Made by a program: the position numbers and the translations under genes. A DNA stretch of 64,000 nt, taken from an uncultured Desulfosarcina sp. (lineage in GTDB: Bacteria > Desulfobacterota > Desulfobacteria > Desulfobacterales > Desulfosarcinaceae). Below, piece after piece: positions 38,683 to 59,692 of this stretch (its first letter is position 1; each line of letters begins with the position of its first letter). The notes beneath the pieces were generated by a model. That model had not been told where the DNA came from. It saw only the letters and a list, made by a program, of their open reading frames with translations, and did not search any database. The stretch is from the NCBI GenBank assembly GCA_963674945.2, contig CAXXWQ010000003.1, forward strand, positions 1,024,001 to 1,088,000. Reading direction: 5' to 3'.

Positions 38683-38736
38683 GCCATATTGTCAATCTTT
38701 TGTCAAAGGATGATTTTGGCTTGCCGGGAGAGGGTC

Positions 38737-41199
38737 ATGGAACAACAAGAAACCGTTTTAACTGTCGAATACGGCAACTCGGAACAGGTGAACCGGGTGG
38801 CGCTTTCCGAACTGATGGCGGCGCTGACCGACTTCCTCGATCATTTCGTCACCAGGACATTCGTCGGACCGGCGTTTTTCGAAATCATCGAAGCCGGTAT
38901 CGGTCCCTCCAGAATCCAGCGGTTGCTCACCGCCTGTGGATACCCCAAAGATCCAAAGGGGTTTTTCGACAACTTGCTATCACAACTCGGACAGGCCAAT
39001 GGAACGAAAACGATCGTTATCAACGACGTCGTTCTGCCCCATATGCTGCTGGTGGCCATGATGGAGGTAATTCTACCCGGTAACCGCTTCGTCTCCATCA
39101 AGACCGTCGAACAGCTGGAGAAGGAAACCAACACGAAGATACCCGAAGCGGATCGCAACGACATGCAGCAGGTGCTCGACACGTACCCGGTTCGGCTGAG
39201 CATGCACACCATCCGGCAGATGCGGGTATCGGCAAATGTGGCATACCAATACATGCCTTTCGTACAGGAGTTGGATCCCGCCGGACACACCAATACCTGG
39301 ATCGGCCAATTCCATCAGGGGCTTTTGGAACAGATGTACCAGAACCGGGTCATCTTCCTGCTCAACATGAGCTGCCCGGTCTATTGCCGGTTCTGTTTCC
39401 GCAAGCACAAAGAGTCCCGCAACGAGGCAAACCCCACACCTGGCGACGTAAATCAAGCCGTCGCGCACGTGAAAAATTCGCCGACCATCAAAGAGATCGT
39501 AATCACCGGCGGCGACCCCTTCATAAACCACAAAAACATGGCTACCGCCATCGATGGCCTGATGGAAATCGAACACGTACAGTCCCTGCGGCTGGCGACG
39601 CGGTCCATCTCCTATTATCCGCACATGTTTTTGTCCGACGACGGTGCACTGCTGCGGTATCTCAAACGAAAGAGCCTGGAGCTTCAGGAACGGGGCAAAC
39701 GGATGGAAGTGGCCACCCATTTCATTCATCCCGATGAAATCTCCCCCCAGAGCCTGATGATCATTTCCGACCTGGTGAAAAACGGAATCGCCGTGTATGT
39801 CCAGACCCCGTTCTTGAAAGACTGCAACGACAAGGGACCGGAGTTGGTCCGGCTGTTTGGAATGCTTCGTGGCGCGGGTGCGGAGCTTCATTACATCTAT
39901 ATTCCGTGCAGCCCCATCCATGGAAACACCATCTACTGGGCGCCAATCGCAAATGGCCTTGCCGCAGGCAATTACCTGCGTGCCCATCTGTCCGACCGTG
40001 TGATCCCGCGGATCTGCACGGCGACGCCCATTGGCAAGATGGACTGGCACACCAGCGGGTGGGCCGTGGAACCGGTTGCCGGCAACGAAAACTTCATGTG
40101 GATCAGAAGTCCTTACACACCGGACTACTTCAAACGGTTCGCCCCCATTGCCAACGAGTTGGAAAACATCCGCGTAAACGCAGAGGGGACCATCGATATT
40201 CAGTATATGGCCCGAATCGGAGACGAGTCTTTGTTTCTCGGTCCTCGTCCCGTCGAAGCAAAAGGCGGCCGGATCCGAAAACAGGAAAACAAGGATGAAG
40301 TGACGCCCCTTTTGCAAACATGTTCCGGCATCGCAACATCCATCGTCCCGACCGGATCCGAATCCATCGCAAGGGTCCACGAAACAAGGGTCGAAATCGA
40401 TGCCGCGGCAACAGATGAGGATATCGCCTATATCCGTCGAGACGCTCATATTACCGATGTGGTGATTGTTTCCCGAACAGATGCCATCGACGTGCTGAAT
40501 GGCGTCAAACGGATCGTCCGGGAGTTGGAGCAGATCCCCCATGTGAACGCGGTACGGCTTCGCAGCCCCCATTTCAATTCTTTTCCGGGACGATACACGC
40601 CGGCCGTCGTCGATGCCCTCGGTGCGATGAACCGGCTGACCATGGTCAACCCGCTTCGCCTGGAGATCGAGGCCCAGTTTCTGGTGGCCGATGAAGTCGG
40701 CCCCGTCCATGGGCGGCTGACCCGGCAGTTGAATAACAGGGGAATTACGGTCTATTGCAACACACCGTTGTTGGGTGGAATCAACGACACGCCTTCGGCC
40801 ATCCATGAACTGGCCTATGCCTGCCGCCAGGCCGGAATCGAATTTCACCACCTCTATGTCGCCGGACTGGCCGTCCAGGAGCAGTGGAACGGCAAACACC
40901 CGGTGCACCTTTCCGACGTCATCGACATCGCCACACGGGTGCGCCGCGAGGGCAGCGGACGGGAGATACCCCGTTACATTGTCCGCACCATCCTCGGCGA
41001 GGTGGATTTCGGACTTTCATCGACCATTGAAGGGCGGGGGCCCGACCTTTCCGTCAAACTGATGCCCTACGATCTGGCATATTTCGACCGTATGGCAAAG
41101 GGTTTTGCCTGGCCATCCGGAGTACAAACCGATTCTGACGGAAAACCCATCGTTGCCGTTACCGGCCTGCGAAAAAACACCGATTTCGCACTATGTTAG
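38737..41199 (+). CDS. Double-length KamA-family (2,3-aminomutase-like) radical SAM protein
   Basis: CPVYCRFCFRK, TGGDP, LRLATR, THFIHPDE, QTPFLKDCND, PIGK; a second degenerate KamA-like repeat in the C-terminal half. Confidence 0.88.
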   Translation: MEQQETVLTVEYGNSEQVNRVALSELMAALTDFLDHFVTRTFVGPAFFEIIEAGIGPSRIQRLLTACGYPKDPKGFFDNLLSQLGQANGTKTIVINDVVLPHMLLVAMMEVILPGNRFVSIKTVEQLEKETNTKIPEADRNDMQQVLDTYPVRLSMHTIRQMRVSANVAYQYMPFVQELDPAGHTNTWIGQFHQGLLEQMYQNRVIFLLNMSCPVYCRFCFRKHKESRNEANPTPGDVNQAVAHVKNSPTIKEIVITGGDPFINHKNMATAIDGLMEIEHVQSLRLATRSISYYPHMFLSDDGALLRYLKRKSLELQERGKRMEVATHFIHPDEISPQSLMIISDLVKNGIAVYVQTPFLKDCNDKGPELVRLFGMLRGAGAELHYIYIPCSPIHGNTIYWAPIANGLAAGNYLRAHLSDRVIPRICTATPIGKMDWHTSGWAVEPVAGNENFMWIRSPYTPDYFKRFAPIANELENIRVNAEGTIDIQYMARIGDESLFLGPRPVEAKGGRIRKQENKDEVTPLLQTCSGIATSIVPTGSESIARVHETRVEIDAAATDEDIAYIRRDAHITDVVIVSRTDAIDVLNGVKRIVRELEQIPHVNAVRLRSPHFNSFPGRYTPAVVDALGAMNRLTMVNPLRLEIEAQFLVADEVGPVHGRLTRQLNNRGITVYCNTPLLGGINDTPSAIHELAYACRQAGIEFHHLYVAGLAVQEQWNGKHPVHLSDVIDIATRVRREGSGREIPRYIVRTILGEVDFGLSSTIEGRGPDLSVKLMPYDLAYFDRMAKGFAWPSGVQTDSDGKPIVAVTGLRKNTDFALC

Positions 41200-46825: not shown

Positions 46826-47214
46826 TCGATTATCGACCCGCAAGCTCGTGTCGATATTCATCGAGCAAAATTTTCATTACATCCTTCTCATTCTGTTTTC
46901 GCAATAAATACAGACAAATAAGATGTTGACACGTTAGTTGTTATGATATATTGATTTTAAACAGATCACTTTCAAGTTCTAAATCGTAACTTCTTGTCTA
47001 CTCTCCTGTAAGTGTTGCGTTCTGTTGCTCTTTTCTTAACACCTCAACTTGTTTTCTCTTTGATTGTAATTTCCGGAAAAAGTTATCGACACGGGCCATT
47101 TCGAGTCTCCTTTTAAATTTCATTGCGCATTTCGATGATGCCACACCCGTCGTGATCGGCATTGGCTTCAACGGCAAAAACTGTTTGCATATACGCTATC
47201 ATCGGAGTGACAGA

Positions 47215-50200
47215 ATGAAGACAAGATCCCCAACAATCGCTAAAGTAACCCGTCCTATTCCCACAGGGGTGTATCCCAGAAAACGCCTGTTTGATTTGTT
47301 GGACCGTAAGCAAACCTATCCGGTCATTTGGATTTTGGGACCGCCCGGATGTGGCAAGACCACGCTGGTGACCAGCTACCTGGAAACAAAAGAATCGCCT
47401 TGCCTGTGGTATCAGGCAGATGAGGGCGAAGCTGACCCGGCAACCTTTTTTTACTACCTGGGACTCGCTGTCAAAAAAGCCACGCCCCGGAAACGAAAAC
47501 CGCTGCCTCTTTTGACACCGGAATACCTGCCTGGCCTGCCGACTTTTACCCTGCGTTTTTTTGAAAACATCTTCTACCGTTTACAGGCTCCCTCTTTCAT
47601 TGTTTTTGACAATTACCAGGAAGTGCCATTGGCGTCACCTTTTCACGAAGTAATTCGTCACGGGCTTTCCAATATCCCAAACGGAATTCATGTAATTTTG
47701 ATCAGCAGAAGCGGGCCTCCCCCGGTTTTAATTCACATGCAGGCCAATAACCGGATGGAAATGATCGGGTGGCAGGATCTTCGTTTGACCCTGAAAGAGT
47801 CGAATGACATCGTCAAACTTCGGGCACGGCATGAGGTTTCGACGGAAACGATAAAGCATTTACACACCATCACCGATGGATGGGTGGCTGGCCTGATGCT
47901 AACGATAAAGACCGCAGCGTTGGAAAAGATTGACCCGCATGCGTTCGATACGATTTCAGCAGAACGAGTTTTTGACTACTTTACCGGTGAGATTTTTGAC
48001 AAGGTTGATGAAAAAATCCAGAATTTTTTGCTCAAGACCGCACTTTTCCCCAAAATGACGGCAAGCATGGCAAGACAATTAACGGGTTTTGAATCTGCAC
48101 ATCGTATCCTTTCTCAATTGAATCGCAATAACTACTTCACTGAAAGACGCTTTCGCAGCAGCCCTGCTTTTGAGTATCATCCTTTGTTTCGAGCGTTTCT
48201 CTTATCCCGTGCGGAAGAAACATTTTCCACAGAATTTCTTTCGGACTTGCGCCGGCGTGCAGCCATGCTTCTTGAAGAAGATGATCAGACAGAGGCTGCC
48301 ATAGATCTTATGCGTGATTCCGGTGACTGGGAAAAAATGATCTCATTGATCCTAAAACACGCACCGGAAATGCTGGCCCAGGGCAGAAATCTTTCTCTGC
48401 AGCAATGGCTGTCCAATATACCAAAAGATATTATCGAGACTACTCCCTGGATTCTTTATTGGATGGGATCCTGCAACCTTCCATTTGATCCTTCAAAAAG
48501 CCGACGCTTTTTCGAAAAGGCTTTTACACTATTCAAAAAGCAAAAGGATGCAGCCGGAACGTTTCTGTCCTGGTCGGGGGCTGTCGATTCAATATATTTC
48601 TCTTGGGAATTTAAGCAGTTTGATAAATGGTTTCATGTGCTCGAAGAGGTTATGCAAACCTTTGAGAAGTTTCCTACCAGGGAGATAGAGGGACGCGTGG
48701 CAACAAATATGGTGCAGGCATTGTACTTTAGGCAACCACAACACCCTGAAATGGAGTCCTGGACGAAACGAGCGCTTTCATTGGGACGGGACAACAAGGA
48801 CGTAGAAGACCAAGTACGAACCTTACTTCATGCTGCACTTGATGCGGTGTTCAAAGGGGGGATCCCAAAAGCAATACCTTTTTTAGAGTCTCTACATGAG
48901 TTGACAAAGTCCTCGAATGTCTCGCATTTGGATCAAATAGCGGCAAGACTGGTAGAAGCGGACTGCTATTTGTTTAATAGTTCATTCAAAAAGGGCATAA
49001 AGGCCGTATCTGAAGGCTTGCAATTATCCCAGTCAACCGGCGTCCATATTATGGATTCTATGTTGTTGGGAAATTTAACTGAATTTGCCCTGGAAATGGG
49101 TGATCTGAAGGCCGCCGGCAATGAAATTGAAAAGATGTTTTCTCTTTTAGGCGATGCTGCACCATTTCTGAAGTCCTTCTACCATTTCATAAAAAGCAGA
49201 TTAGCCTTATTTCAAAACAATCTTGCCCAGGCCGCGCATCATGCCAGGTTGGCTTCTGACCTTGCCGGAAAGATCGGACTTGGCGTTAACACGGGATTAT
49301 GCTGGCTAAGGGAAGCGATGATTCTGTACCAGTCCGGAAAGTATCAGCAAGGTACCCGGCTTCAAAAAAAGGCGTTGGCGATTGCACGCCGTTCAAAAAG
49401 CAGAGTGATTGAAAGCAAAGCTTTGTTGACGGCGGCCTATTTTGCCCTGGACCGGAGAGATAAAACATCTGGTTTGAAGTTGCTTCGCAAGGCACTGGCT
49501 ATGGCCAAAGAACTGCAATATTATTTCAGCCCCGATGATGACGCGGCAGTGACGGCGAGAATCTGCGCCATCGCCCTGGAAAATGGAATCGAGGTGGACC
49601 ATGTGCAAAAAATCATCCGGAAAAGAAACCTTGTCCTGGACGATCCCCCCCTTCATCTGGATAACTGGCCCTGGGCCATACAGATATATACCTTGGGTCG
49701 GTTCGATATGGTTATCGATGAAAAACCTTTTACATTCCTCAGAAAAACGCAGAAGAAACCCCTTGAAATGCTCAAGCTGATCGTTTCCTTTGGAGAAGGA
49801 CAAGAGGTTGGCAAATCACAACTGAGCGATATCCTCTGGCCGGATGCGGATGGAGATAAGGCACAGCGATCTTTTGACACCACACTTCACCGTCTTCGCC
49901 AACTTTTGGGTCATGAAAAAGCGATTCATCTCCGAGACGGCAGATTATCCATCGACCAGCGTTACTGCTGGGTGGACAGCATGGCTTTTGAACACATTCT
50001 GAAACAGGCTGAAAATTGTGCTGGAAAAGAAGACAGAAAGAACACTATCCAATTACTCGAGAACGCCGTTTCATTATACAAAGGCCCGTTCCTTGCCGGA
50101 GAAACGGATGAGTCATGGACCATTTCCCATAACGAGCGTTTGCGGAGCAAATTCTTACGCTGCATCGAAAAGCTTGGAAATTACATGGAAGAAAAAGGTG

Positions 50201-50415
50201 ATTTGAACAGGGCGGTCGATTGTTTCCGGAGAGCAATCGAGGTAGACCATATGGCCGAGATGTTTTACCGGCGTCTGATGATCTGCTTGAAACAACTTGG
50301 ACGCAAAACCGATGCGCTGTCTGTATATCAACGCTGTGAAAGGACACTTTCATCCAGTCTTGAACTCGAACCTTCCCAGGAGACCAAAGCAATAAAACAG
50401 TCTCTGTACGAATAG
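47215..50415 (+). CDS. MalT-like ATPase-TPR regulator with C-terminal SARP/BTAD domain
   Basis: GPPGCGKTT, VFDNY, TDGW-x-AGL, YHPLFRAFL, LWPD, LHRLR, LYKGPFL, YRRLM, LEPSQET. Confidence 0.9.
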   Translation: MKTRSPTIAKVTRPIPTGVYPRKRLFDLLDRKQTYPVIWILGPPGCGKTTLVTSYLETKESPCLWYQADEGEADPATFFYYLGLAVKKATPRKRKPLPLLTPEYLPGLPTFTLRFFENIFYRLQAPSFIVFDNYQEVPLASPFHEVIRHGLSNIPNGIHVILISRSGPPPVLIHMQANNRMEMIGWQDLRLTLKESNDIVKLRARHEVSTETIKHLHTITDGWVAGLMLTIKTAALEKIDPHAFDTISAERVFDYFTGEIFDKVDEKIQNFLLKTALFPKMTASMARQLTGFESAHRILSQLNRNNYFTERRFRSSPAFEYHPLFRAFLLSRAEETFSTEFLSDLRRRAAMLLEEDDQTEAAIDLMRDSGDWEKMISLILKHAPEMLAQGRNLSLQQWLSNIPKDIIETTPWILYWMGSCNLPFDPSKSRRFFEKAFTLFKKQKDAAGTFLSWSGAVDSIYFSWEFKQFDKWFHVLEEVMQTFEKFPTREIEGRVATNMVQALYFRQPQHPEMESWTKRALSLGRDNKDVEDQVRTLLHAALDAVFKGGIPKAIPFLESLHELTKSSNVSHLDQIAARLVEADCYLFNSSFKKGIKAVSEGLQLSQSTGVHIMDSMLLGNLTEFALEMGDLKAAGNEIEKMFSLLGDAAPFLKSFYHFIKSRLALFQNNLAQAAHHARLASDLAGKIGLGVNTGLCWLREAMILYQSGKYQQGTRLQKKALAIARRSKSRVIESKALLTAAYFALDRRDKTSGLKLLRKALAMAKELQYYFSPDDDAAVTARICAIALENGIEVDHVQKIIRKRNLVLDDPPLHLDNWPWAIQIYTLGRFDMVIDEKPFTFLRKTQKKPLEMLKLIVSFGEGQEVGKSQLSDILWPDADGDKAQRSFDTTLHRLRQLLGHEKAIHLRDGRLSIDQRYCWVDSMAFEHILKQAENCAGKEDRKNTIQLLENAVSLYKGPFLAGETDESWTISHNERLRSKFLRCIEKLGNYMEEKGDLNRAVDCFRRAIEVDHMAEMFYRRLMICLKQLGRKTDALSVYQRCERTLSSSLELEPSQETKAIKQSLYE

Positions 50416-50513: not shown

Positions 50514-50947
50514 GCGTGGATAACGCTTGACAAATACCAATCGTTTCTTATCCTACATCTAATACCACTATGTGGTATTCCTTTTCGTAAATTATTGACC
50601 CTTTTTTGTTCATAGCACATTTTTGCACGTGAGAAATTGGTATTCATTGTAAGTTCAGATTTCGTATACAGAGCACGTTCCCGTCTGGTTATGCAACCAA
50701 CCCATCACCCTGCGTATTATCGATAACAATATAGACACCGTGTTCTTTGGTAACCATTGATCGATTCAACCATTTGTATTTGCGATCATTCCTTTTCTCA
50801 GGACTGAGCCGAACGTACAACGTGCACCAATGCAGCCTGTTTTTTTGCTATTCGTTGGCGTTCAGCAAATGTCTTGCCGTTGTCTGATTGTATCGTATGT
50901 TCTTCCCCACCCTATCCAATAGGCCCTTAAAATGGAAGGAGAATGAA

Positions 50948-53176
50948 ATGAATATTTTATTCCCACATATATTTCGCCGCAACAATCTGACGCCTGTAAC
51001 AAAATATATTGTCCCGGCCGTCGCCGTTGTCTCTTTGATCTCTTGCGGTGGCGGTGGTGGCGGCGGTGGTGTCAAGAGCACCCCGCCACCTGTCACCAAA
51101 AACCTTTCCGCCGCTGATCTTGTCATCGAAACCGATAACCCGCAAATCGGCTATCCAATGAAAGTATCGGTAACACTTGCAGCAAATGAGGCCACCACCA
51201 ATGTGAGTGTTTCCGTGTTTGCCATCGATAATAATGACGACCCGGAGGCGGAAATCCGCCAGATTCCGTTAGGCTCCGAAACGATTGAGCGACTGGATGA
51301 AGGTGCACGCTCCTATGCGTTGAATGTCAACGTCCCCTCCAGCGTCGAAATTCCGGGCAATTATTTTATCGCGGCAATTATCGATCCGGCGGAGGAACTG
51401 CCTGAAACCAATGAGGACGACAACGCCGTGTACATCGAGACAGTTCTGTATACAGGGGACCCCAATATACTGCTTTCGGAATTGGTACTCGATCGTACCG
51501 CCTTGATCATCAATACCGACACGTACGAAAAGCAGGTGACCGGAACGGCAGGAAATGTCCACAATGCGGATGCGGGTGGGACGCTTACCGTGGGGGCCAA
51601 TGGTCTGGATGTGGACGAAACGGTCGATATCGAAGCCTTTGCCAAACTGCGTCTCATGCGTTCCGACAAGGGCACGTCCCACGATGTGCCACTTTATTTG
51701 TGGAACTCGGAAGCCAGTCGGTACATCAACGCCTATGGCATCGATCCCGAAACGGGAACGGTTCTGGGAGCAGCGGAATGGCTTCCGTTGGGAAGGTTTG
51801 CGCCCCAGTTGGTGGAGAGGGTGGGTGAAGATGTAACCCTCAACGATGTGAAGCGTGACACGACACACCTGAATTTTTATTTTCCCGGAAAACTGGGACG
51901 CGAGCTCGAACAGGCCATGCGGTACCCAGCCGTTGGTTTCGGACTGCCCACCGCGCCTCCCCCGGATCTCACTCCCGAGGCGATCGAGGAGTTGCGAATT
52001 TTTTTACGGGGCCTTCCTTTCAGCGGCGTCATCGGCGATGAAAGCGAAGCCATGAAGGTGATGGATTTTGCCGTTTGCGTTGAAATCAGGCCTGTCAATG
52101 GAACCGTTATCGATTCATTGACGGAAGACAACCAACGCTGCGCCCCACTGGCAATTTTCCTGCCTCCAATCAAATCATCCCCGCCGCCACCGGAAACCGG
52201 CGGATTCGAACCGCAATTTTCCACCCCATCAAACCCATTGACGGCCGGAGACGGCTTCGGGACGAGAGGAGGAGGAGCTGCATTCGGCTACGGCCTGGAT
52301 TTCGGTGCGACTGCGACGGCCGACAACCGCGGCTATATCGAGGAGCTGCGAGGGACTTTGCCGGTAAGCATCTTTAGCTCAGATTTCGACTTCATGAATG
52401 TCACGGTTCGGGCACAGATAGTACCGGAATACGCGGGTAAGCCGGCGGGTGAGGAATCGGAGTACAGAGTGGAACTGCGTTTTCTGAATCAATTGTTGTA
52501 TGTCAGAAGTTATCCATCCGGTTCCGTAAAGTTGAGCATCAGTTTTTCGAAGGAAGCCCCCCCACCGGAGGAAGATAAGATTCCCAAGCAATACTTCATC
52601 GGACCGGTTCCGGTCGATGCGGGGGCGTCGGTGGCCGGCAACTTCGGCATTGAGTATGAATTCGGTATACGGAAACAGCTCGATGATACCTATGGCGCAG
52701 AACCGCCTGAATTGGACTTTGGAAATTCGGTCAGCCCGTTTGCCAATGTCGATGCGACGCTCTACGCAGGCGTCGGTTCCAGCCTCTATTCGGTCGGAGT
52801 CGAGGGCGTGCTGACCCTCCTGGACGAACGACTGGAGCTTTTCAGCGGTACCCAGATTGAGGTTTTCGATCGCGGATACGATAGTGGAATCGCCGAGTTC
52901 ATCATTACCCAAGGCCAGGAAATTACCAATATTTTTTCCGGTCCTGAAGGGGCGCTGAATCTTTATGCCAAGTACTCGGTTCCAAAGATTGTGACATGCA
53001 GTTGGGGGTTCGTCAAAGGCAAGTGTGTTAAAAGCAAAACGATCAAGGCGACCAAAAACATCTGGCGCTCGGGTGCGCTCTTCGAACTGAGAGACATTCT
53101 CTATGAGGACGAGGATGTGGCGTTCGACGTGGTCAAGATGGATGGTCAGGGGCCCATGTATTTCGTGAAGCCATGA
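50948..53176 (+). CDS. Large lipoprotein: CARDB/Ig-like domain and C-terminal amphipathic beta-sheet
   Basis: LISC-G8 lipobox and linker; GNYFIAAIIDP-x5-ETNEDDN; alternating beta-strands at the C-terminus. Confidence 0.8.
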   Translation: MNILFPHIFRRNNLTPVTKYIVPAVAVVSLISCGGGGGGGGVKSTPPPVTKNLSAADLVIETDNPQIGYPMKVSVTLAANEATTNVSVSVFAIDNNDDPEAEIRQIPLGSETIERLDEGARSYALNVNVPSSVEIPGNYFIAAIIDPAEELPETNEDDNAVYIETVLYTGDPNILLSELVLDRTALIINTDTYEKQVTGTAGNVHNADAGGTLTVGANGLDVDETVDIEAFAKLRLMRSDKGTSHDVPLYLWNSEASRYINAYGIDPETGTVLGAAEWLPLGRFAPQLVERVGEDVTLNDVKRDTTHLNFYFPGKLGRELEQAMRYPAVGFGLPTAPPPDLTPEAIEELRIFLRGLPFSGVIGDESEAMKVMDFAVCVEIRPVNGTVIDSLTEDNQRCAPLAIFLPPIKSSPPPPETGGFEPQFSTPSNPLTAGDGFGTRGGGAAFGYGLDFGATATADNRGYIEELRGTLPVSIFSSDFDFMNVTVRAQIVPEYAGKPAGEESEYRVELRFLNQLLYVRSYPSGSVKLSISFSKEAPPPEEDKIPKQYFIGPVPVDAGASVAGNFGIEYEFGIRKQLDDTYGAEPPELDFGNSVSPFANVDATLYAGVGSSLYSVGVEGVLTLLDERLELFSGTQIEVFDRGYDSGIAEFIITQGQEITNIFSGPEGALNLYAKYSVPKIVTCSWGFVKGKCVKSKTIKATKNIWRSGALFELRDILYEDEDVAFDVVKMDGQGPMYFVKP

Positions 53177-55044
53177 AAAAAGACAAATCAATTCAGCATT
53201 GGTGGATCATAGTCTGCGTAGTGCTGTTTCTTGTTGTGCTCGGCATTCTATGGACCCGGCAATCCGTTGTGGACGTTTCAGTGGCACCGGTCCAGCACCC
53301 CGCGTCGGATGGACACGGGACGGCTACGGCCGATGCATCCTTCGCGAGGTTGCAGTGGCGTGTTGGAACCGCCCAGCAGTACCAAGTGTATTTCGATGCC
53401 ACCATGCAAATGAACGCGGCCGGCACCGATGGAACGCAGGTCATTCGTGTCCGGATGACGTGCCTGTTGGAAATGCAAACATTGGAAGTCAGCGACAAAA
53501 ATGCATTGGCCGGCATGCGCTTGTCCGCCGTCGATTTACGGATCGGGGGCGTCGCCGACCCGCGTACCAACCAGGCACTGACGGAACCATTCCGTGTACA
53601 TTACGCCTTGGAAGGATTTCCCGAAACATTTGTGTTTCCGGCGGGTGTGACCGCCAAACATCGCGGCATGCTGGAAAACCTGGTCCGGACCTTCCAGGTG
53701 ACCATGGAAGACGAAGAGACCTGGGTCGCAAAGGAGTCGAATGCATCGGGCGCCTATGAGGCCACCTATCGGCGAGTGGCACCGCTTCGGGTAGAGAAGA
53801 ACAAAACGAACTATATCGGTTTGTCATCTGCAGCAATGGACCAAGTAGCCAGGACCACTTCCACGGAAAACTTTCAGATCGATCCGCAGCACGATTGGAT
53901 CGCTGCCATGACCGTCGACGAGACCCTGCGAACCGACGGTAATGGTGGCGTGGGAATGAAGATCACCAACCGGGCGAAGCTCACTTTGCAATCTGCGATA
54001 CACAACGTATCCCCTGATTCCTGGAATTTTGTTGCCGCGGCGCCGCCGCCGGAAGAAACCGAGGCGCCGAGGCCCATACCGACTATTTCAACGCAAGAAG
54101 CGCATCAGCAGATCCTGGAAGCGGTAACGGAACTGGATTTGGCCATGGAAGGCCGCATTGCATGGATCCATCGGTTGCAGGATCTGCTTCGTGTCGACGA
54201 TTCCCTTCCCCCCTTGCTGTTGGCGGAGATGAAGGCCCAGGACCTGAGCGATCGAACCAGGGCCGACCTCTATCTCGCATTGGAACTGGCCGGCACCGAA
54301 TCCGCCCAGACCGCTCTGGTTTCCGTGGTCGAAGATCCCGATTGGTCCACACAGGACGCCATGCGTGCCATTGTCGCGCTGGCCGGCGTGAACCGGCCCA
54401 GCGGTCAGACGGTAGCAGCCTTGTGGGATACGGTGGAGAACGTGCCGGCGAGTGAAGATCGACAGCAACTGGCGAGCACGGCGACGCTGGCCCTGGGAAG
54501 TCTCGGCAAGACCATGAACGCCGCGAATGACCCGGACTACCCGGAGCTTAGAGGACGGTTGCTTGATGGTGCGCGGACTGGCCTCGGGTCCGATTCTGCT
54601 GCCGAACAGCGAACGAACTATGTTCACGCCATCGGCAACACGGGCGACATCTCTTTGGCAAACAGCCTCATTCTCTTTCTGGATGACGAGACACCGTCTG
54701 TTCGGCGCGCTGCCGCATTGTCATTGGGACGGCTGGGAGCGGACCGGGTCGCCGATGAACTGATGTTTCGCATCGACTATGAGAAAAACAGCCAGGTTCG
54801 CGGTGCGATTGCCGAATCGCTGGTCAATTGGAAGACGCCATCGGTATCCGCCATGGCGTCGATACGTAACCAGATTCGCACGGAGCCCGATGAGCACACC
54901 CGCTACAGCATGGCCCGCTTTCTCGGTGCCAACCTGAACGAATTTCCGGAAAACAGGGCTGTCCTGGAGGATCTGATGCGAACGGAACCATCGAAGCGAA
55001 TCCGCCGGCGTGTTGCGGAAACACTGGCAACGGCTTCAAGATAG
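53173..55044 (+). CDS. Membrane-anchored vitellogenin-N/MTP-like protein with HEAT-type repeats
   Basis: N-terminal TM, beta domain, helical repeats (LELAGTESAQ, LALGSL, HAIGNTG, VRRAAALSLG); 4-nt overlap with the upstream gene. Confidence 0.75.
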   Translation: MKKDKSIQHWWIIVCVVLFLVVLGILWTRQSVVDVSVAPVQHPASDGHGTATADASFARLQWRVGTAQQYQVYFDATMQMNAAGTDGTQVIRVRMTCLLEMQTLEVSDKNALAGMRLSAVDLRIGGVADPRTNQALTEPFRVHYALEGFPETFVFPAGVTAKHRGMLENLVRTFQVTMEDEETWVAKESNASGAYEATYRRVAPLRVEKNKTNYIGLSSAAMDQVARTTSTENFQIDPQHDWIAAMTVDETLRTDGNGGVGMKITNRAKLTLQSAIHNVSPDSWNFVAAAPPPEETEAPRPIPTISTQEAHQQILEAVTELDLAMEGRIAWIHRLQDLLRVDDSLPPLLLAEMKAQDLSDRTRADLYLALELAGTESAQTALVSVVEDPDWSTQDAMRAIVALAGVNRPSGQTVAALWDTVENVPASEDRQQLASTATLALGSLGKTMNAANDPDYPELRGRLLDGARTGLGSDSAAEQRTNYVHAIGNTGDISLANSLILFLDDETPSVRRAAALSLGRLGADRVADELMFRIDYEKNSQVRGAIAESLVNWKTPSVSAMASIRNQIRTEPDEHTRYSMARFLGANLNEFPENRAVLEDLMRTEPSKRIRRRVAETLATASR

Positions 55045-55335: not shown

Positions 55336-55857
55336 TCATTTTTCTGGAATTCCCGCCTTGTGATACGCTTCAAGAAGGCGATTTTTTTGTTCTATATTAT
55401 TAATATCCAATTCTTCAATTCGCGCCGTCGAATAAGTTGGTTTAATCCGCAAAACTTCAGCGGCAGCTTCACGTGCTTTTTTCTCATTACCCAACAACTG
55501 ATATGTACACGTTAATCCCGAATAGGCAAAGAGATAATCCGGGTTGCGTTCTATGGCCTTATTCCACAATGGGATTGCCTTTTCATATTGGCCGGACAAC
55601 GCATAGGACCAAGCCAGATTGTTCAAATAATTGACCGGTGTGATGGGATTGAGGCGGATAGCCTTTTCCAAAAGGGGGATCGCTTCATCATAGCGTCCCG
55701 CAAACCTAAGCACCAATCCATAAAAGAAAATGGAACTTGCAGAGTTCGGGCTTAATTCGACAGATTTCTGCATCTCGACAATGGCATTTTCGTATTGTTT
55801 CCTTAGCATAAATACGCAGCCAAGCAATCGATGTGAAGTGGGATCTTGACCAGACAA
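55336..55857 (-). pseudogene. 5'-truncated TPR protein (C-terminus typical of adenylate cyclase-TolB-TPR proteins)
   Basis: TPRs ending LLEAYHKAGIPEK; no credible start or SD. Confidence 0.6.
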
Positions 55858-55981
55858 GTCTGCAAAAATGCATCAGCGTGACATTTGGACTCAAGACGCG
55901 CACCTTAAAAATCTACCAAGAGTAAAATATTTTTCAAAAACACCCTCATACCAACTTCAGTCCCCAGCAGACCGCCAATAG

Positions 55982-56051
55982 AGGAATCGGTATTCTATTG
56001 GTAGAATACCGGCAGGTGACACATATTTTGTTCCGGTGGCACCCCCCTTCA
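55982..56051. repeat. Structured direct repeat copy 1
   Basis: Matches 57721-57787; hairpin CGGTATTCTA-TTGG-TAGAATACCG. Confidence 0.8.
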
Positions 56052-56234
56052 GTGAAAGGGGTCAAGTCTGCTCTTAACTCATATAGAGATTGTGGAGTGA
56101 ATCTGCTCTCAATAGTCTTTATACTGCACAAGCTGAAATTATCTGTTTGTATCCCTACGATGGATGTTATCAAGACGTCTGTAGAATATCAATGTTGGGG
56201 CTGACGAAATCAGAGGGCACATCCAGCTATTTGA

Positions 56235-56549
56235 TCATGCGGCATTCAAAGGTTGGATTTGTGATAGTTCTTTACTATATCGTTGTTCTGAGTCCCAAAG
56301 GTCCCATGAATGTTGCACATTCAACCAGAATTCGGGTGAATTTCCAAAAAGGCGTGACAATCTGAGCGCCATAGCAGGGCTGATAGCTCGTCGTTCTCTT
56401 AAAATTTCATTTATTGTCTGGCGTGATACGCCCAAAGCGTTTGCCATGGAGGCCGTGTTAAGATCATAGTCCGGCATGAAATCCTCTCTGAGCATTTCAC
56501 CGGGATGAGTCGGTTTGATTTCTCGCTTTGTTGTATTAGGGATCGCCAT
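56235..56549 (-). CDS. higA: HigA antitoxin
   Basis: PTHPGEMLREDF, GVSRQTINE, MALRLSRLFGNSPEFWLN-x-Q. Confidence 0.95.
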   Translation of the reverse strand: MAIPNTTKREIKPTHPGEMLREDFMPDYDLNTASMANALGVSRQTINEILRERRAISPAMALRLSRLFGNSPEFWLNVQHSWDLWDSEQRYSKELSQIQPLNAA

Positions 56550-56560
56550 TTTTTCAATCC

Positions 56561-56712
56561 TTAAGGGTAATCGGTTATCTCAACATCGTAGGCATCACCT
56601 TCGATAAAACGGAAACAAATTCGCCACTGGTCATTTATCGATAAGGGATACGTTTTGATTTGCCAGTAATAAATAATCTTTGTGTTTCTTTATCGGCAAA
56701 TGTTCTTATCAA
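56561..56712 (-). pseudogene. higB: HigB toxin with internal deletion and frameshift
   Basis: N-part LIRTFADKETQRLFITGKSKRIP joined out of frame to C-part SINDQWRICFRFIEGDAYDVEITDY. Confidence 0.85.
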
Positions 56713-56779
56713 AAGCCAGCTGAAAACAATCACGTGACAGTTGTCAAGTGACAAAGTAGTATCATGTTTAACGGGCTTG

Positions 56780-56837
56780 TCCCAACAATCGGCTGTTTCC
56801 GAACTCGCTTTGCTCGCCGCAAAGCCGCACGTTCCAG
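56780..56837 (+). other. attC-like recombination site (58 bp)
   Basis: TCCCAAC...GTTCCAG with inner imperfect palindrome; inner 44 nt differ at 3 positions from 60714-60771. Confidence 0.7.
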
Positions 56838-57013
56838 CAAAGTTACTATATTGAATAAGTAACACCTTTTCAAATTTCTGATTTTAAAATTTCCAGCACC
56901 CAGCCGCCGAAATCGTTCACAACAAATACCATCACTGTAATGACCGGGCACCGTCGATCCGCAAGCTTGTGTGTCGGCTGTTGCAAGGGGCTTGGCTTGG
57001 TCCGTCACCAAAT

Positions 57014-57044
57014 AAAAAGGCCGACTGCTGACAGCAGCCGGCCT
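57014..57044 (-). terminator. Rho-independent terminator of the TPR gene
   Basis: Minus strand AGGCCGGCTGCTG-T-CAGCAGTCGGCCT followed by a T run. Confidence 0.75.
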
Positions 57045-57069
57045 AACTTTTTGATCTACTGTTTTTTAT

Positions 57070-57582
57070 TTACCGCTCCAGTTCCGTTTCCAGCGCATCC
57101 TCCACATGCATGTGCTGGGTCTGCCAGATGTTGTTCTCGTTCATGTAGGACTCCAGATTCTTGTTGCCCAGATGTGCCACCATTTGAGCGTCCGCCTGCG
57201 CTTCTTCCGAATTCTCCATATTGGTGTGCAATGTCGCCCGGCTGTAATAAGCGGCACCATATTCCGGATCCAGCTCGATGGCCCGATCGAAATCGGACAG
57301 GGCACGACCATATTCTCCCCGCTTCTCTTCCACCAGCCCGCGCATATGAAAGGCACGTGCATGGTCCGGGACGATGGCGATGGCACGATCGAAATCCGCC
57401 CAAGCCTGGTCCAGAAGATTCAATTTGAGATACGCCGCCCCGCGGCTGAGGTACGCTGTTATGTTATGGGCGTCATTTTCCAAAACGTGTGAAAAATGAA
57501 CGATACTTTCGCCGTAATGGGATCGGGCAAATTCGCGCATTCCCAATTCCATGAAATCGTTTACAATAGAATTGTCTGCCAT
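57070..57582 (-). CDS. TPR repeat protein
   Basis: SD AAGGAGG before ATG 57582; TPRs AYLSRGAAY, AFHMRG, AYYSRA. Confidence 0.88.
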   Translation of the reverse strand: MADNSIVNDFMELGMREFARSHYGESIVHFSHVLENDAHNITAYLSRGAAYLKLNLLDQAWADFDRAIAIVPDHARAFHMRGLVEEKRGEYGRALSDFDRAIELDPEYGAAYYSRATLHTNMENSEEAQADAQMVAHLGNKNLESYMNENNIWQTQHMHVEDALETELER

Positions 57583-57720
57583 GTTCTTACCCTCCTTTTC
57601 CGTTCGCCGAAGATGGTCCTGGTAAAAGCCGTAAAATCTGAATTCGACGATGGACAGTGTTTTTCGCTCTGGTCTTAAAGTTAAGAATTCAATGGAAATT
57701 TTCAACTGCCGGCACCATGA

Positions 57721-57787
57721 AGGAATCGGTAGTCTATTGGTAGGATACCGGCAGGTGACACATATTTGGTTCTTGTGCCCCCCTTCA
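57721..57787. repeat. Structured direct repeat copy 2
   Basis: Matches 55982-56051. Confidence 0.8.
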
Positions 57788-57981
57788 TAACCCGCAACGA
57801 TTCGAAGGGATAGAATTTCCAAATCACTGTAGCTTCGTATATTGAAGAACGCCATGGAACCTTCTTCATTTTCGCTGAAAATTTTGTTGGTTGGATATCT
57901 CCAAATTGAGTATATCCTAAAAACCAAATGTGGAAAGTTTGGCCGATTACCCCACCCTCAATCGCAGCATTTTACACCATC

Positions 57982-58052
57982 TGACCCGCGGTCAATTATT
58001 TCTTGACAGATGACTTGCGGTCAACTACCGTCTAATAAATGACCCAAGGTCA
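57982..58052 (+). promoter_or_regulatory. Sigma70 promoter overlaid by three palindromic operators
   Basis: TGAC(C/T)-N3-GGTCA at 57982, 58011, 58040 (29-bp period); TTGACA-17-TACCGT at 58003-58031. Confidence 0.75.
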
Positions 58053-58194
58053 ATTAAGTATCGGCTTGGGGGCTGAAAACACCAGTTATTGGGAGTAATA
58101 CCCAACAATTTCCTTTTATTGGCGACCCTATCTGACTCTCGGCTCGTTGGCCTTCAGTTTTTTATAGAGAACTCATTTTTTATTTATTCAAACT

Positions 58195-59692
58195 CAATGT
58201 CGTTAACTTAACCGATCGGCTTGTACTGAGGAAAATATATGCGCGGTTTCGCTTTGTGTTTGCGCGGATATTTTCTCCCCGGCCTAATCGGTTCAACGGT
58301 TCTTTGAAAAATATATTGCAAATCGGCGATCAATCGTTTGATCATCCTTTTCGTATCGAGAAACAGCAAGACGATCACACCTTTACTTTTTGACAGCGCC
58401 TGGGTGAAATTGATCTGGTATCGGTGTTTTTTATCCACAATGTCATTGTCCATCTGGTCTTGGACAGGAAAAGCCATCATCCAGACCAGGTTTTTGGCGA
58501 AAATCTTTGCGTGAAAGTCTTGATACACAGACAGCGCAGATTGGCCAGAAAAGTTTTCCAGTTCCATCCGGCATTTGATGATTTTGTAATCCTCTTCCAC
58601 TGGCCATCTTTTGTGGTAAAGATCGCTAAACAGTTCGATTGGATATGTTCCCTTGTCAATCAGCGAAGTCATTAGCACGGCAACCTTCCCATCGTTTTCA
58701 ATGCGGATCAGACGAAGTTTTAAAGGGGTTGTGTCCAACCCCATCTGTTTGCATTGGGAAACGGAGGTAGGATGAACAGGCACGGTAACAATCTTTTCCG
58801 ATAGCCCGGAATGAAAAAACTTACGAACGACTTTCCATTTCGTACAAGACACGCGGGCACAGAAGTTGGCCTCCATGGAAAGGATCAGGTTAAAAAGCCA
58901 CCATGCCGGGTACCCCCTATCGAGAAGGATCAAATCCTTGGGCATGACGTTTAGCATGTGTTGCGCCGCCAGTTCGCGTTCACCGATACGTTTGGGCTTG
59001 ATAAGGGCATCGACGGTCATTTTGTTGAGGACATCGAAAAGCTGAGAAACCCTTGCCATGGGAGATGGCGCACCCTGACGAACGTTCCAAACGCCAAAAT
59101 GCTGGGCGACATCATCCGTCACCGGCAATTTTGTTGTAGAACCGTCAATGGCCAGCAACCGGAACCCGAACCACAACTTGGGACGAAAATGCTTTTCAAA
59201 ATAGATGATTAACTGTAAATTCAATTCAACAAAGGCTTCATACTTGAGCTTCATTCGCGCTTTTGTTAAAGCTGCTTTCGATACGACCCGTCTTGCCACA
59301 TCGAAGCGGCATAATGTCTTGAAGAATCTATCCAGTTCGTCCTGGTATGAACCTTTGACAAGGTTGATGAGAAAAACGATCAAGACATGAAACGGAAGTT
59401 TTCTATTCCGTGTGAAATCGTTCTTGTTTTTTCTGTGGCGAGCGATGAAGTCAGGAGAGGAGATAATTTCTCTTATAAATTCAATTGTTTTGGCACATAC
59501 ATTGAAAATCAGGTTTCGTGCCAAAGTTACCAAATTTCTCGCTAATTTTCGACATGGTATGCTCCTTTTGATTATATAACTGGCTGTTATTATTGAAAGT
59601 GAGTATACCATGTCGATCCACCTAATACAACATAATTTGCAATATATTTGATATGTTATGCCGTTTAACTGCTTCTTAAGTTAATGGCATTG
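58195..59692 (-). mobile_element. IS4 family insertion sequence (1498 bp)
   Basis: 17-bp TIRs CAATGTCGTTAACTTAA and CAATGCCATTAACTTAA; 10-bp duplication TATTCAAACT at 58185-58194 and 59693-59702. Confidence 0.95.
58208..59611 (-). CDS. IS4 family DDE transposase (start uncertain)
   Basis: AIDGS, DRGY, Y-x2-R-x3-E-x6-K (YHKRWPVEEDYKIIK). Confidence 0.92.
   Translation of the reverse strand: MVYSLSIITASYIIKRSIPCRKLARNLVTLARNLIFNVCAKTIEFIREIISSPDFIARHRKNKNDFTRNRKLPFHVLIVFLINLVKGSYQDELDRFFKTLCRFDVARRVVSKAALTKARMKLKYEAFVELNLQLIIYFEKHFRPKLWFGFRLLAIDGSTTKLPVTDDVAQHFGVWNVRQGAPSPMARVSQLFDVLNKMTVDALIKPKRIGERELAAQHMLNVMPKDLILLDRGYPAWWLFNLILSMEANFCARVSCTKWKVVRKFFHSGLSEKIVTVPVHPTSVSQCKQMGLDTTPLKLRLIRIENDGKVAVLMTSLIDKGTYPIELFSDLYHKRWPVEEDYKIIKCRMELENFSGQSALSVYQDFHAKIFAKNLVWMMAFPVQDQMDNDIVDKKHRYQINFTQALSKSKGVIVLLFLDTKRMIKRLIADLQYIFQRTVEPIRPGRKYPRKHKAKPRIYFPQYKPIG

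What the first reader, a model, noticed from the sequence alone, without database searches (positions are those of the whole stretch)
50948..55044. Apparent split bacterial vitellogenin/MTP-type large lipid-transfer protein
Seen: two coupled genes (4-nt overlap), a lipoprotein and an N-terminally membrane-anchored protein. The second reads LTEPFRVHYALEG...ENLVRTFQ...ESNASGAYEATY...VEKNK, then LELAGT...LALGSL...HAIGNTG. From memory, this follows the motif order of the Vitellogenin_N beta domain and alpha-superhelix shared by vitellogenin, apoB and MTP, but the protein stops before the lipid-binding sheets. The lipoprotein ends in amphipathic strands (FIGPVPVDAGASVAG; VSPFANVDATLYAGVGSSLYSVGVEGVL) that recall those missing sheets. 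Inference: the two chains assemble one lipid-transfer module tethered to both membranes or the surface, a possible envelope lipid-trafficking system distinct from Mla, Lpt and AsmA. The LLTP family is best known from animals.
Basis: partly seen in the sequence, partly recalled or inferred. Interest (0 to 1): 0.82.

Follow-up and report, generated by a model that had tools for sequence, protein, structure and literature searches.

The report
Split bacterial vitellogenin/MTP-like lipid module
Two neighbouring bacterial genes encode the front half and, most likely, the lipid-pocket back half of the animal lipid carriers (vitellogenin, MTP, apoB), so a design described as an animal invention seems to exist in bacteria as a two-piece envelope machine, although binding of the two chains and of lipid is untested.

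Summary
Observation confirmed; interpretation largely supported. Gene B (53173-55044) is a true homologue of the N-terminal module of large lipid transfer proteins (LLTP): Pfam Vitellogenin_N over cut-off, its beta domain alone finds only lipovitellin in the PDB, and Foldseek ranks 11 LLTP chains first (E 3e-17 to 2e-7). The last 300 residues of lipoprotein A (50948-53176) form an all-beta domain whose best structural matches are the lipid-binding sheets of MTP and vitellogenin (Foldseek ranks 1-4; Z 8.4 but rmsd 14-17 A) and which carries LLTP motifs N20-N22 in order. The two models tile the animal proteins end to end: MTP 31-615 plus 613-882; bee vitellogenin 19-775 plus 776-1135. This domain, not the whole lipoprotein, is B's partner across Myxococcota, Planctomycetota and Pseudomonadota (91 of 102 B-positive myxobacterial genomes); no fusion was seen, and orphan B copies exist. 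Tethering to both membranes holds at most for this clade. Eight literature searches listed no description; this scan noted the same system in at least eight other genomes.

The parts
50936..50941 (+). Shine-Dalgarno-like AAGGAG, 6 nt before the start of gene A
   Evidence: sequence
50948..53176 (+). Gene A, 742-aa lipoprotein carrying the LLTP-like sheet domain at its C-terminus
50948..51046 (+). A residues 1-33: lipoprotein signal ending in LISC (Cys33), followed by a Gly/Pro linker
   Evidence: lipidation itself is inferred
51101..51451 (+). A residues about 52-168: CARDB-like Ig domain (weak)
   Evidence: PF07705 E 0.028, below cut-off, on 109-160; PF07705 precomputed on some homologues and E 7e-5 to 3e-4 on three relatives, one of them over cut-off; borders approximate
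51455..52177 (+). A residues 170-410: conserved region of unknown fold, restricted to the close clade; invariant Cys377 and Cys398
   Evidence: no PDB sequence match better than E 0.84; not modelled
52238..52558 (+). A residues 431-537: seven shorter strands, C-sheet-like; N20-like motif at 511-518
52586..53140 (+). A residues 547-731: long amphipathic strands, A-sheet-like; N21-like hairpin at 549-557 (Gly552 invariant in the close clade) and N22-like motif at 597-617
53173..53176 (+). ATGA overlap: start of B and stop of A (translational coupling inferred)
53173..55044 (+). Gene B, 623-aa membrane-anchored LLTP N-terminal module
53194..53259 (+). B residues 8-29: hydrophobic helix (signal anchor or signal peptide), followed by a disordered linker to about residue 55
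   Evidence: cleavage not tested
53356..54024 (+). B residues 62-284: N-sheet (half beta-barrel), 11 strands with central helix 161-173
54091..55038 (+). B residues 307-622: alpha-helical superhelix, 17 listed helices

Best explanation
A and B are the two halves of one LLTP lipid-binding module. B is exported and held in the inner membrane by its N-terminal helix; outside the cytoplasm it presents the half barrel and the helical clamp. The C-terminal domain of A supplies the two sheets: its short-strand sheet packs on B's helical domain, the far half of its long-strand sheet docks on B's half barrel, and the hydrophobic faces of the two sheets close an MTP-sized pocket for one or a few lipid molecules. 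The pair most likely picks up lipid at a membrane surface and holds it or hands it on, while the changeable N-terminal parts of A-type proteins (here a lipid anchor, an Ig-like domain and an unknown domain) set where it sits. Shown by computation: homology of B (about 0.97), best structural and motif match of the A domain to the LLTP sheets (about 0.85), genomic coupling. Inferred from the MTP and vitellogenin structures: the heterodimer (about 0.8), the pocket and lipid binding (about 0.65), the compartment, and any transfer between membranes (about 0.3).
For: B: PF01347 over cut-off; deep profile hits lipovitellin E 2.6e-9 over both domains, MTP and apoB E 0.0014; beta domain alone hits only lipovitellin; model pLDDT 92; Foldseek ranks 1-11 are MTP, lipovitellin, bee vitellogenin, apoB. 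A domain: model pLDDT 88; Foldseek ranks 1-4 are MTP and lipovitellin, E 1.8e-4 to 0.03, probability 0.89-1.00, next row 0.23; VIA-align over 48,161 chains ranks MTP first (Z 8.1, the only Z >= 8) and vitellogenin second; 236 residues align with MTP 614-881, the lipid-binding domain being 604-884 (PMC6717300). The two alignments abut: MTP 8eoj 31-615 and 613-882; vitellogenin 9enr 19-775 and 776-1135. Strands alternate hydrophobic and polar. N22-type pattern in 25 of 73 partner domains (shuffles mean 5.8, max 14) and 110 of 120 close homologues; N20-type in 10 of 73 (mean 0.5, max 3). Coupling: A upstream of B in 21 of 23 loci, the other two beginning inside B; 91 both, 11 B only, 3 partner only, 196 neither among 301 Myxococcota genomes; B next to the partner in 12 of 12 further Planctomycetota genomes that have it; tree distances of 73 pairs correlate at 0.875.
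Against: Superpositions are poor as rigid bodies: A domain rmsd 14-17 A, TM-score about 0.2, Z 8.1-8.4, close to the level the tool calls common, with outer-membrane barrels at Z 5-6.4 just below; B rmsd 12-15 A, and HEAT/ARM repeats outscore LLTPs on Z because of the helical half. The A domain has no sequence match in the PDB or to Pfam LLTP C-terminal families (0 of 38 members; PF19444 and PF09172 not on any partner gene in 5 genomes). The motif patterns were written after seeing both sets, and the sequences are related. The model has no helix between the sheets, which vitellogenin has. No fused ORF among 85 B and 82 partner ORFs. Six myxobacterial B copies, picked because no partner was listed, have none in 11-18 kb. 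32 of the 150 listed B matches had no listed partner within 2.5 kb (lists truncated). No lipid-metabolism or transporter gene is conserved next to the pair.
Confidence: 0.6

Rival explanations
1. B is a private, membrane-anchored folding or loading factor. It binds the amphipathic sheets of A-type proteins only while they fold outside the cytoplasm (and may load lipid on them), then lets them go on to the outer membrane or the surface, as membrane-anchored lipase foldases do for their lipases (recalled) and MTP does for apoB.
For: B keeps one architecture (about 600 aa, N-terminal anchor) while partners range from about 280 to 4,000 aa and include LamG/PA14/TSP3 adhesin-like proteins that probably work outside the cell. 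MTP's barrel and helical domains are reported to chaperone apoB (PMC6717300).
Against: In animal LLTPs the same two parts are one chain and the sheets are permanently clamped; the alignments abut without gap; exposed hydrophobic faces would need a new cover after release.
Confidence: 0.17
2. The module is a docking clamp. B anchors varied surface or periplasmic passenger proteins through their sheet domain; the pocket is collapsed or filled by a structural lipid, and no lipid is moved.
For: The sheet domain behaves as a cassette on unrelated passengers: CARDB, DUF4214, C-type lectin, LamG; no transporter or lipid enzyme is conserved nearby; many paralogous pairs per myxobacterial genome.
Against: Minimal partners of about 280-300 aa carry no passenger (L027, L029, L086), so the module must do something itself; hydrophobic faces are conserved along both sheets.
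Confidence: 0.13
3. The A domain is not an LLTP sheet pair but a membrane-inserting beta structure (outer-membrane barrel or pore-forming hairpins), and B is its chaperone or inhibitor; the MTP match is analogy between curved antiparallel sheets.
For: Barrels follow at Z 5-6.4, some with rmsd 3-6 A over the long-strand sheet; high rmsd to MTP; no sequence-level hit.
Against: LLTPs rank first in three searches and cover the whole domain in order; it would be a coincidence for the neighbour of an LLTP front half to match best the missing back half; N20-N22 motifs; strands of 17-28 residues; a terminal Phe, Trp or Tyr in only 12 of 82 partner ORFs.
Confidence: 0.07

Closest known systems
Microsomal triglyceride transfer protein large subunit (MTP-alpha; PDB 6I7S, 8EOJ)
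   Same: Half barrel, 17-helix clamp and a two-sheet C-terminal domain of about 280 residues; B aligns with 31-615 and the A domain with 613-882; works in an extracytoplasmic compartment.
   Different: One chain in animals, two genes in reversed order here; no PDI partner seen; B has a membrane anchor and A a lipobox plus 400 extra residues; the N-barrel disulfide is absent; lipid binding not shown.
Lipovitellin / vitellogenin (PDB 1LSH; honey bee 9ENR, 9ENS); Pfam PF01347 Vitellogenin_N
   Same: Best sequence match for B; LLT motifs N1-N8 recognisable by eye on B and N20-N22 on A; B aligns with 9ENR 19-775 and the A domain with 776-1135.
   Different: No large funnel, vWD or CTCK domain; far shorter; membrane-tethered rather than circulating; no helix between the sheets in the model.
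Apolipoprotein B-100 N-terminal beta-alpha1 region (PDB 9BD1, 9E9R)
   Same: B matches it by Foldseek (E 3.5e-11) and weakly by profile (E 0.0014).
   Different: No beta-belt; the A domain model did not list apoB among its top rows.
HEAT/alphaRep repeat proteins (PF13646), the name databases give B
   Same: B's helical half matches them best by sequence and Z.
   Different: They cover only residues 300-623; the beta domain is LLTP-specific.
Bacterial envelope lipid transporters Mla, Lpt, AsmA-like/TamB, Lol (recalled)
   Same: Exported, membrane-tethered, beta-rich with hydrophobic faces.
   Different: No Pfam or NCBIfam match to them; LptC and LPD-3 appear only as low rows (Z 5.2; E 0.42); no ABC transporter is conserved nearby.

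Membership tests
LLTP superfamily (vitellogenin, MTP, apoB, apolipophorin) | Vitellogenin_N / LLT module detectable by profile | tested here: met
   PF01347 47.3 bits, cut-off 24, residues 366-575; profile A3 against lipovitellin 78-506, E 2.6e-9
LLTP superfamily | N-terminal half beta-barrel round a central helix (13 strands in MTP) | tested here: met
   11 strands of 3 or more residues and helix 161-173; only LLTP rows span residues 59-610; beta domain alone hits lipovitellin; strand count is two short of MTP's
LLTP superfamily | Alpha-helical superhelix of about 17 helices after the barrel | tested here: met
   17 listed helices at 307-622; MTP has 17
LLTP superfamily | C- and A-sheets forming the lipid-binding domain | tested here: inconclusive
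   Absent from B; A 431-731 matches them best and bears N20-N22-like motifs, but rmsd is 14-17 A, Z 8.1-8.4, and there is no Pfam or PDB sequence hit
LLTP superfamily | Module encoded as one polypeptide | tested here: not met
   Two ORFs, sheets first; 0 fused ORFs among 85 B and 82 partner ORFs; a search of longer proteins with the partner profile listed none with PF01347 among 105 (weak test)
LLTP superfamily | Conserved disulfide in the N-barrel (MTP Cys174-Cys194) | tested here: not met
   B has only Cys15 and Cys97; no column of the 130-sequence alignment has Cys in 10% of rows
LLTP superfamily | Sheets clamped by the helical domain and docked on the barrel, enclosing a cavity | not testable with these tools
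LLTP superfamily | Binds or transfers lipid | not testable with these tools
   Needs experiment; amphipathic strands only
LLTP superfamily | Enters the secretory pathway | tested here: met
   N-terminal hydrophobic segment in 111 of 118 B proteins, lipobox in 92 of 114 close A proteins; simple patterns, no dedicated predictor
Outer-membrane beta-barrel (for the A domain) | Closed barrel of membrane-length strands ending in an aromatic beta-signal | tested here: inconclusive
   Terminal F/W/Y in 12 of 82; barrels match only in part and rank below MTP; model coordinates could not be inspected
Plain HEAT-repeat protein (database name of B) | Repeats account for the whole protein | tested here: not met
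   Residues 62-284 are an LLTP-type beta domain

The most novel reading that the evidence does not exclude
The pair is an undescribed bacterial lipid-transfer machine that moves lipid across or along the cell envelope, here spanning it with one anchor in each membrane, and the animal LLTPs (MTP, vitellogenin, apoB) arose by fusion of such a two-gene bacterial module, front half to back half, at the very joint seen here.
Probability: 0.3. Interest if true: 0.93.

Novelty: new variant of a known kind. Interest (0 to 1): 0.8.

Why it matters
LLTPs are described as animal proteins whose emergence is linked to multicellularity (PMC12214520, passage seen). A two-gene version spread over several bacterial phyla, and present in about a third of sampled myxobacterial genomes, would move the origin of the yolk and lipoprotein fold back to bacteria and suggest that it began as two chains. 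It would also add a candidate lipid-handling system to the Gram-negative envelope that is unrelated to Mla, Lpt and AsmA-like proteins, and give a small, two-piece model in which the lipid pocket and the clamp can be studied apart. It can be tested directly, since cultured myxobacteria probably carry it.

Tried and rejected
Sequence searches of A against PDB, Pfam and NCBIfam gave nothing beyond a weak CARDB match. PF19444 (MTP_lip_bd) and PF09172 (Vit_open_b-sht) did not hit any partner gene in 5 genomes at E <= 10. The close-homologue profile of B found only HEAT repeats in the PDB; the LLTP hit needed the deeper profile. ESM Atlas: A's first hit is an unnamed lipoprotein cluster; B 55-300 gave Vitellogenin_N clusters at 0.86, a lead only. 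A metagenome locus scan with the deep alignment could not run (no conserved stretch). A fused A-B form was sought in fetched loci and among longer proteins and not found; long open frames around B in GC-rich genomes were upstream read-through, not fusions. A third conserved gene was sought in 23 loci plus the window and not found. Promoter and terminator scans gave chance-level counts (4 against 3.8; 6 against 6.3). 'Plain HEAT-repeat protein' was rejected.
Full report
1. Observation. Gene A (50948-53176, 742 aa) and gene B (53173-55044, 623 aa) lie on the + strand and share ATGA. A begins with a lipobox-type signal (LISC, Cys33; pattern in 92 of 114 close homologues that start with Met), B with a hydrophobic helix (111 of 118). 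Both have many homologues (199 and 152) and coding-type divergence. The own genome holds one copy of each domain.

2. B is an LLTP N-terminal module. Pfam Vitellogenin_N scores 47.3 bits (cut-off 24) on residues 366-575, beside HEAT repeats; by hand count 90 of the 120 listed homologues carry PF01347 in the database, mostly under the name 'HEAT repeat protein'. Because helical repeats can match by analogy, I tested the beta part. A 130-sequence profile hits lipovitellin 1LSH 78-506 at E 2.6e-9 and MTP and apoB at E 0.0014, below 23 HEAT-repeat entries. The model (pLDDT 92, pTM 0.82) has a membrane helix, a loose linker, 11 strands round helix 161-173, and 17 helices, as MTP has a half barrel at 21-297 and 17 helices at 298-603 (PMC6717300, parts 1-3 of 8 read). 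Foldseek ranks 1-11 are MTP, lipovitellin, bee vitellogenin and apoB (E 2.9e-17 to 1.7e-7; TM 0.29-0.38, rmsd 10-21 A). In the wide VIA-align search HEAT/ARM proteins take ranks 1-15 on the helical half; the LLTP rows (Z 13.8-17.0) are the ones that span residues 59-610. B ends where the lipid-binding sheets begin. It lacks the family's barrel disulfide.

3. What travels with B. In 23 loci from GTDB genomes, A lies directly upstream of B in 21; the other two begin inside B; no third gene is conserved. B-like genes occur in 102 of 301 genomes of the phylum of a Myxococcota record. A profile built only from close homologues of A found weak matches to A's C-terminal part beside B in 21 of 29 of these loci, and after iteration in 29 of 29, and in 2 of 5 further loci of one planctomycete. 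A profile of this domain (38 rows, 21 of them from those myxobacterial loci, so partly circular there) matches 94 of the 301 genomes: 91 have both, 11 only B, 3 only the partner, 196 neither (compared by hand). Of 150 listed B matches, 118 have a listed partner within 2.5 kb: 89 upstream, 21 downstream, 8 divergent. The reverse test is nearly independent: in Planctomycetota the partner profile found 12 of 150 further genomes, and B lies beside it in all 12. In the phylum of a gammaproteobacterial record, 5 of 350 further genomes have B, and all 6 copies have the partner next door. Trees of 73 pairs agree (Pearson 0.875, Spearman 0.56), as expected for genes inherited together; this does not show contact. 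Against strict pairing: six myxobacterial B copies chosen for lacking a listed partner have none in the fetched 11-18 kb, nor has one relative's 11.5-kb contig. No ORF holds both domains. The conserved partner is thus a domain of about 280-300 residues. What precedes it varies: almost nothing, lipoprotein plus CARDB-like domain as here, or thousands of residues of LamG, PA14, TSP3 and Ig domains.

4. The partner domain looks like the missing sheets. It has no PDB or relevant Pfam sequence match. Its model (A 411-742; pLDDT 88, pTM 0.71) is all beta: seven shorter strands, then long strands of 17-28 residues, with alternating hydrophobic and polar faces in most strands. MTP's lipid domain is a six-strand C-sheet plus a six-strand A-sheet twice as long. 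Foldseek against 350,542 chains ranks MTP, MTP, lipovitellin, MTP first (E 1.8e-4 to 0.03; probability 0.89-1.00; next 0.23). VIA-align against 48,161 chains ranks MTP first (Z 8.1, 199 aligned, rmsd 13.9) and bee vitellogenin second (Z 6.4, tied with unrelated rows); the second look gives Z 8.4, 236 aligned, rmsd 17.3 against MTP 614-881. These are order-and-topology matches, not tight superpositions (TM about 0.2); I infer that the two sheets splay apart when folded without B, but could not inspect coordinates. Two facts raise my confidence. First, the two independent alignments abut on the same chains: MTP 8EOJ 31-615 (B) and 613-882 (A); vitellogenin 9ENR 19-775 (B) and 776-1135 (A). Second, the published LLT motifs (PMC1783640: passages, and parts 1 and 3 of 3 of supplement 2) divide between the genes: N1-N8 are recognisable by eye on B, and N20, N21 and N22 fall in order on A at 511, 549 and 597; N9-N15 were seen only in part. 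For N22, Pro1, Gly12, Val13 and Gly21 are in register without gaps. A strict N22 pattern occurs in 25 of 73 partner domains (200 shuffles: mean 5.8, max 14; 62 of 1,500 genome windows) and 110 of 120 close homologues; a loose one in 53 of 73, 49 at the same column; a strict N20 pattern in 10 of 73 (mean 0.5, max 3), not including A itself, which fits only the loose form. The patterns were drawn after the fact and the sequences are kin. Gly552, invariant in the close clade and 31 of 38 in the wide set, sits in the first turn of the long sheet, where MTP has its conserved Gly746; that pairing is my inference.

5. How it most likely works (0.6). B is exported and anchored in the inner membrane; A is exported and lipidated. 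A's sheets take the place that the C-terminal domain has in MTP, clamped by B's helices and docked on its half barrel, and close a pocket for one or a few lipids. The pair picks up lipid at a membrane and holds it or passes it on; the passenger domains of A-type proteins set the site. Homology and gene coupling are computed; complex, pocket, lipid, compartment and direction are inferred. Rivals: B as a private folding or loading factor that releases A (0.17); a docking clamp for surface proteins with no lipid traffic (0.13); a membrane-inserting beta structure with a chaperone (0.07).

6. Comparison and membership. B meets the sequence and fold tests of the LLTP N-terminal module. The pair fails two features of the animal family, single chain and barrel disulfide; the sheet domain is a best match but formally inconclusive; cavity and lipid binding were not testable. 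So B is an LLTP homologue, and A+B probably work like a split MTP, without being a canonical member.

7. Distribution of this copy. B's beta domain was found in 3 of 40 relatives, and in 1 of 24 genomes of the same genus, there as a 167-codon frame beside a partner frame. None of 400 other genomes of the own phylum passed E 1e-20 (3 candidates scored per genome). The nearest named relatives are gammaproteobacterial assemblies at 55-60% identity, and A and B are richer in G+C (0.54, 0.58) than the genome (about 0.51) and the upstream gene (0.47). Horizontal gain is plausible, not shown.

8. Novelty. Eight searches (listings only) showed no description of bacterial LLTPs or of the partner domain; subscription papers and bioRxiv supplements were out of reach. 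PMC12214520 (12 of 25 matching passages seen) ties LLTP emergence to animal multicellularity. Databases do already place PF01347 on many B proteins. This scan has noted the same system in at least eight other genomes (read after the co-occurrence work and before the models); none shared words with B. Those notes are not support. Verdict: real, a new variant of a known kind, interest 0.8.

Noticed in passing
L111-L116 (Myxococcota genomes G637, G669, G618, G561, G580, G659): A subfamily of B without a partner gene nearby; in 5 of 6 it lies directly downstream of a dnaA-like gene on the same strand (dnaA recognised from the sequence, not scanned). A partner encoded elsewhere, or a function alone, is open.
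   Followed up: partly
L106-L109 (for example L107:1062-12911): The sheet domain lies in the middle of 3,900-4,000-residue frames directly upstream of B; the one scanned holds LamG, PA14, PD40, TSP3, Ig and aspartyl-protease-like domains.
   Followed up: partly
P0396, P0397: Proteins of 1,477 and 1,542 aa with a C-type lectin domain and Cys-rich repeats match the sheet domain weakly (E 7e-6, 1e-4).
   Followed up: no
L068, L069; G564:C52, G552:C9: Two B paralogues about 3.6 kb apart behind one partner gene; in L081/L092 the reverse, two partner genes before one B.
   Followed up: no
window 51455-52177: A residues 170-410 are highly conserved in the close clade (many invariant Pro, Gly, Trp, two Cys) but match nothing known.
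   Followed up: partly
window 47152-50415: MalT-like AAA/TPR regulator with a C-terminal BTAD domain, 532 bp upstream on the same strand; a TTGACA-16-TATCCT site lies at 50527-50554 (chance-level count). Not found conserved beside the pair in other loci.
   Followed up: partly
window 55336-59611: Downstream on the - strand: a short TPR frame, an HTH_3 antitoxin-like gene (56235-56549), another TPR gene and a DDE transposase (58208-59611); a mobile-looking neighbourhood.
   Followed up: no
window 38689-41199: An 836-aa radical SAM protein whose C-terminal half looks by eye like a degenerate repeat of the N-terminal KamA-like half (label recalled; Pfam matched only 229-290).
   Followed up: no
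L096 / L110 (G879, same genus): The only congener hit has a 167-codon B frame next to a 299-codon partner frame, so the pair may be decaying or misassembled there.
   Followed up: no
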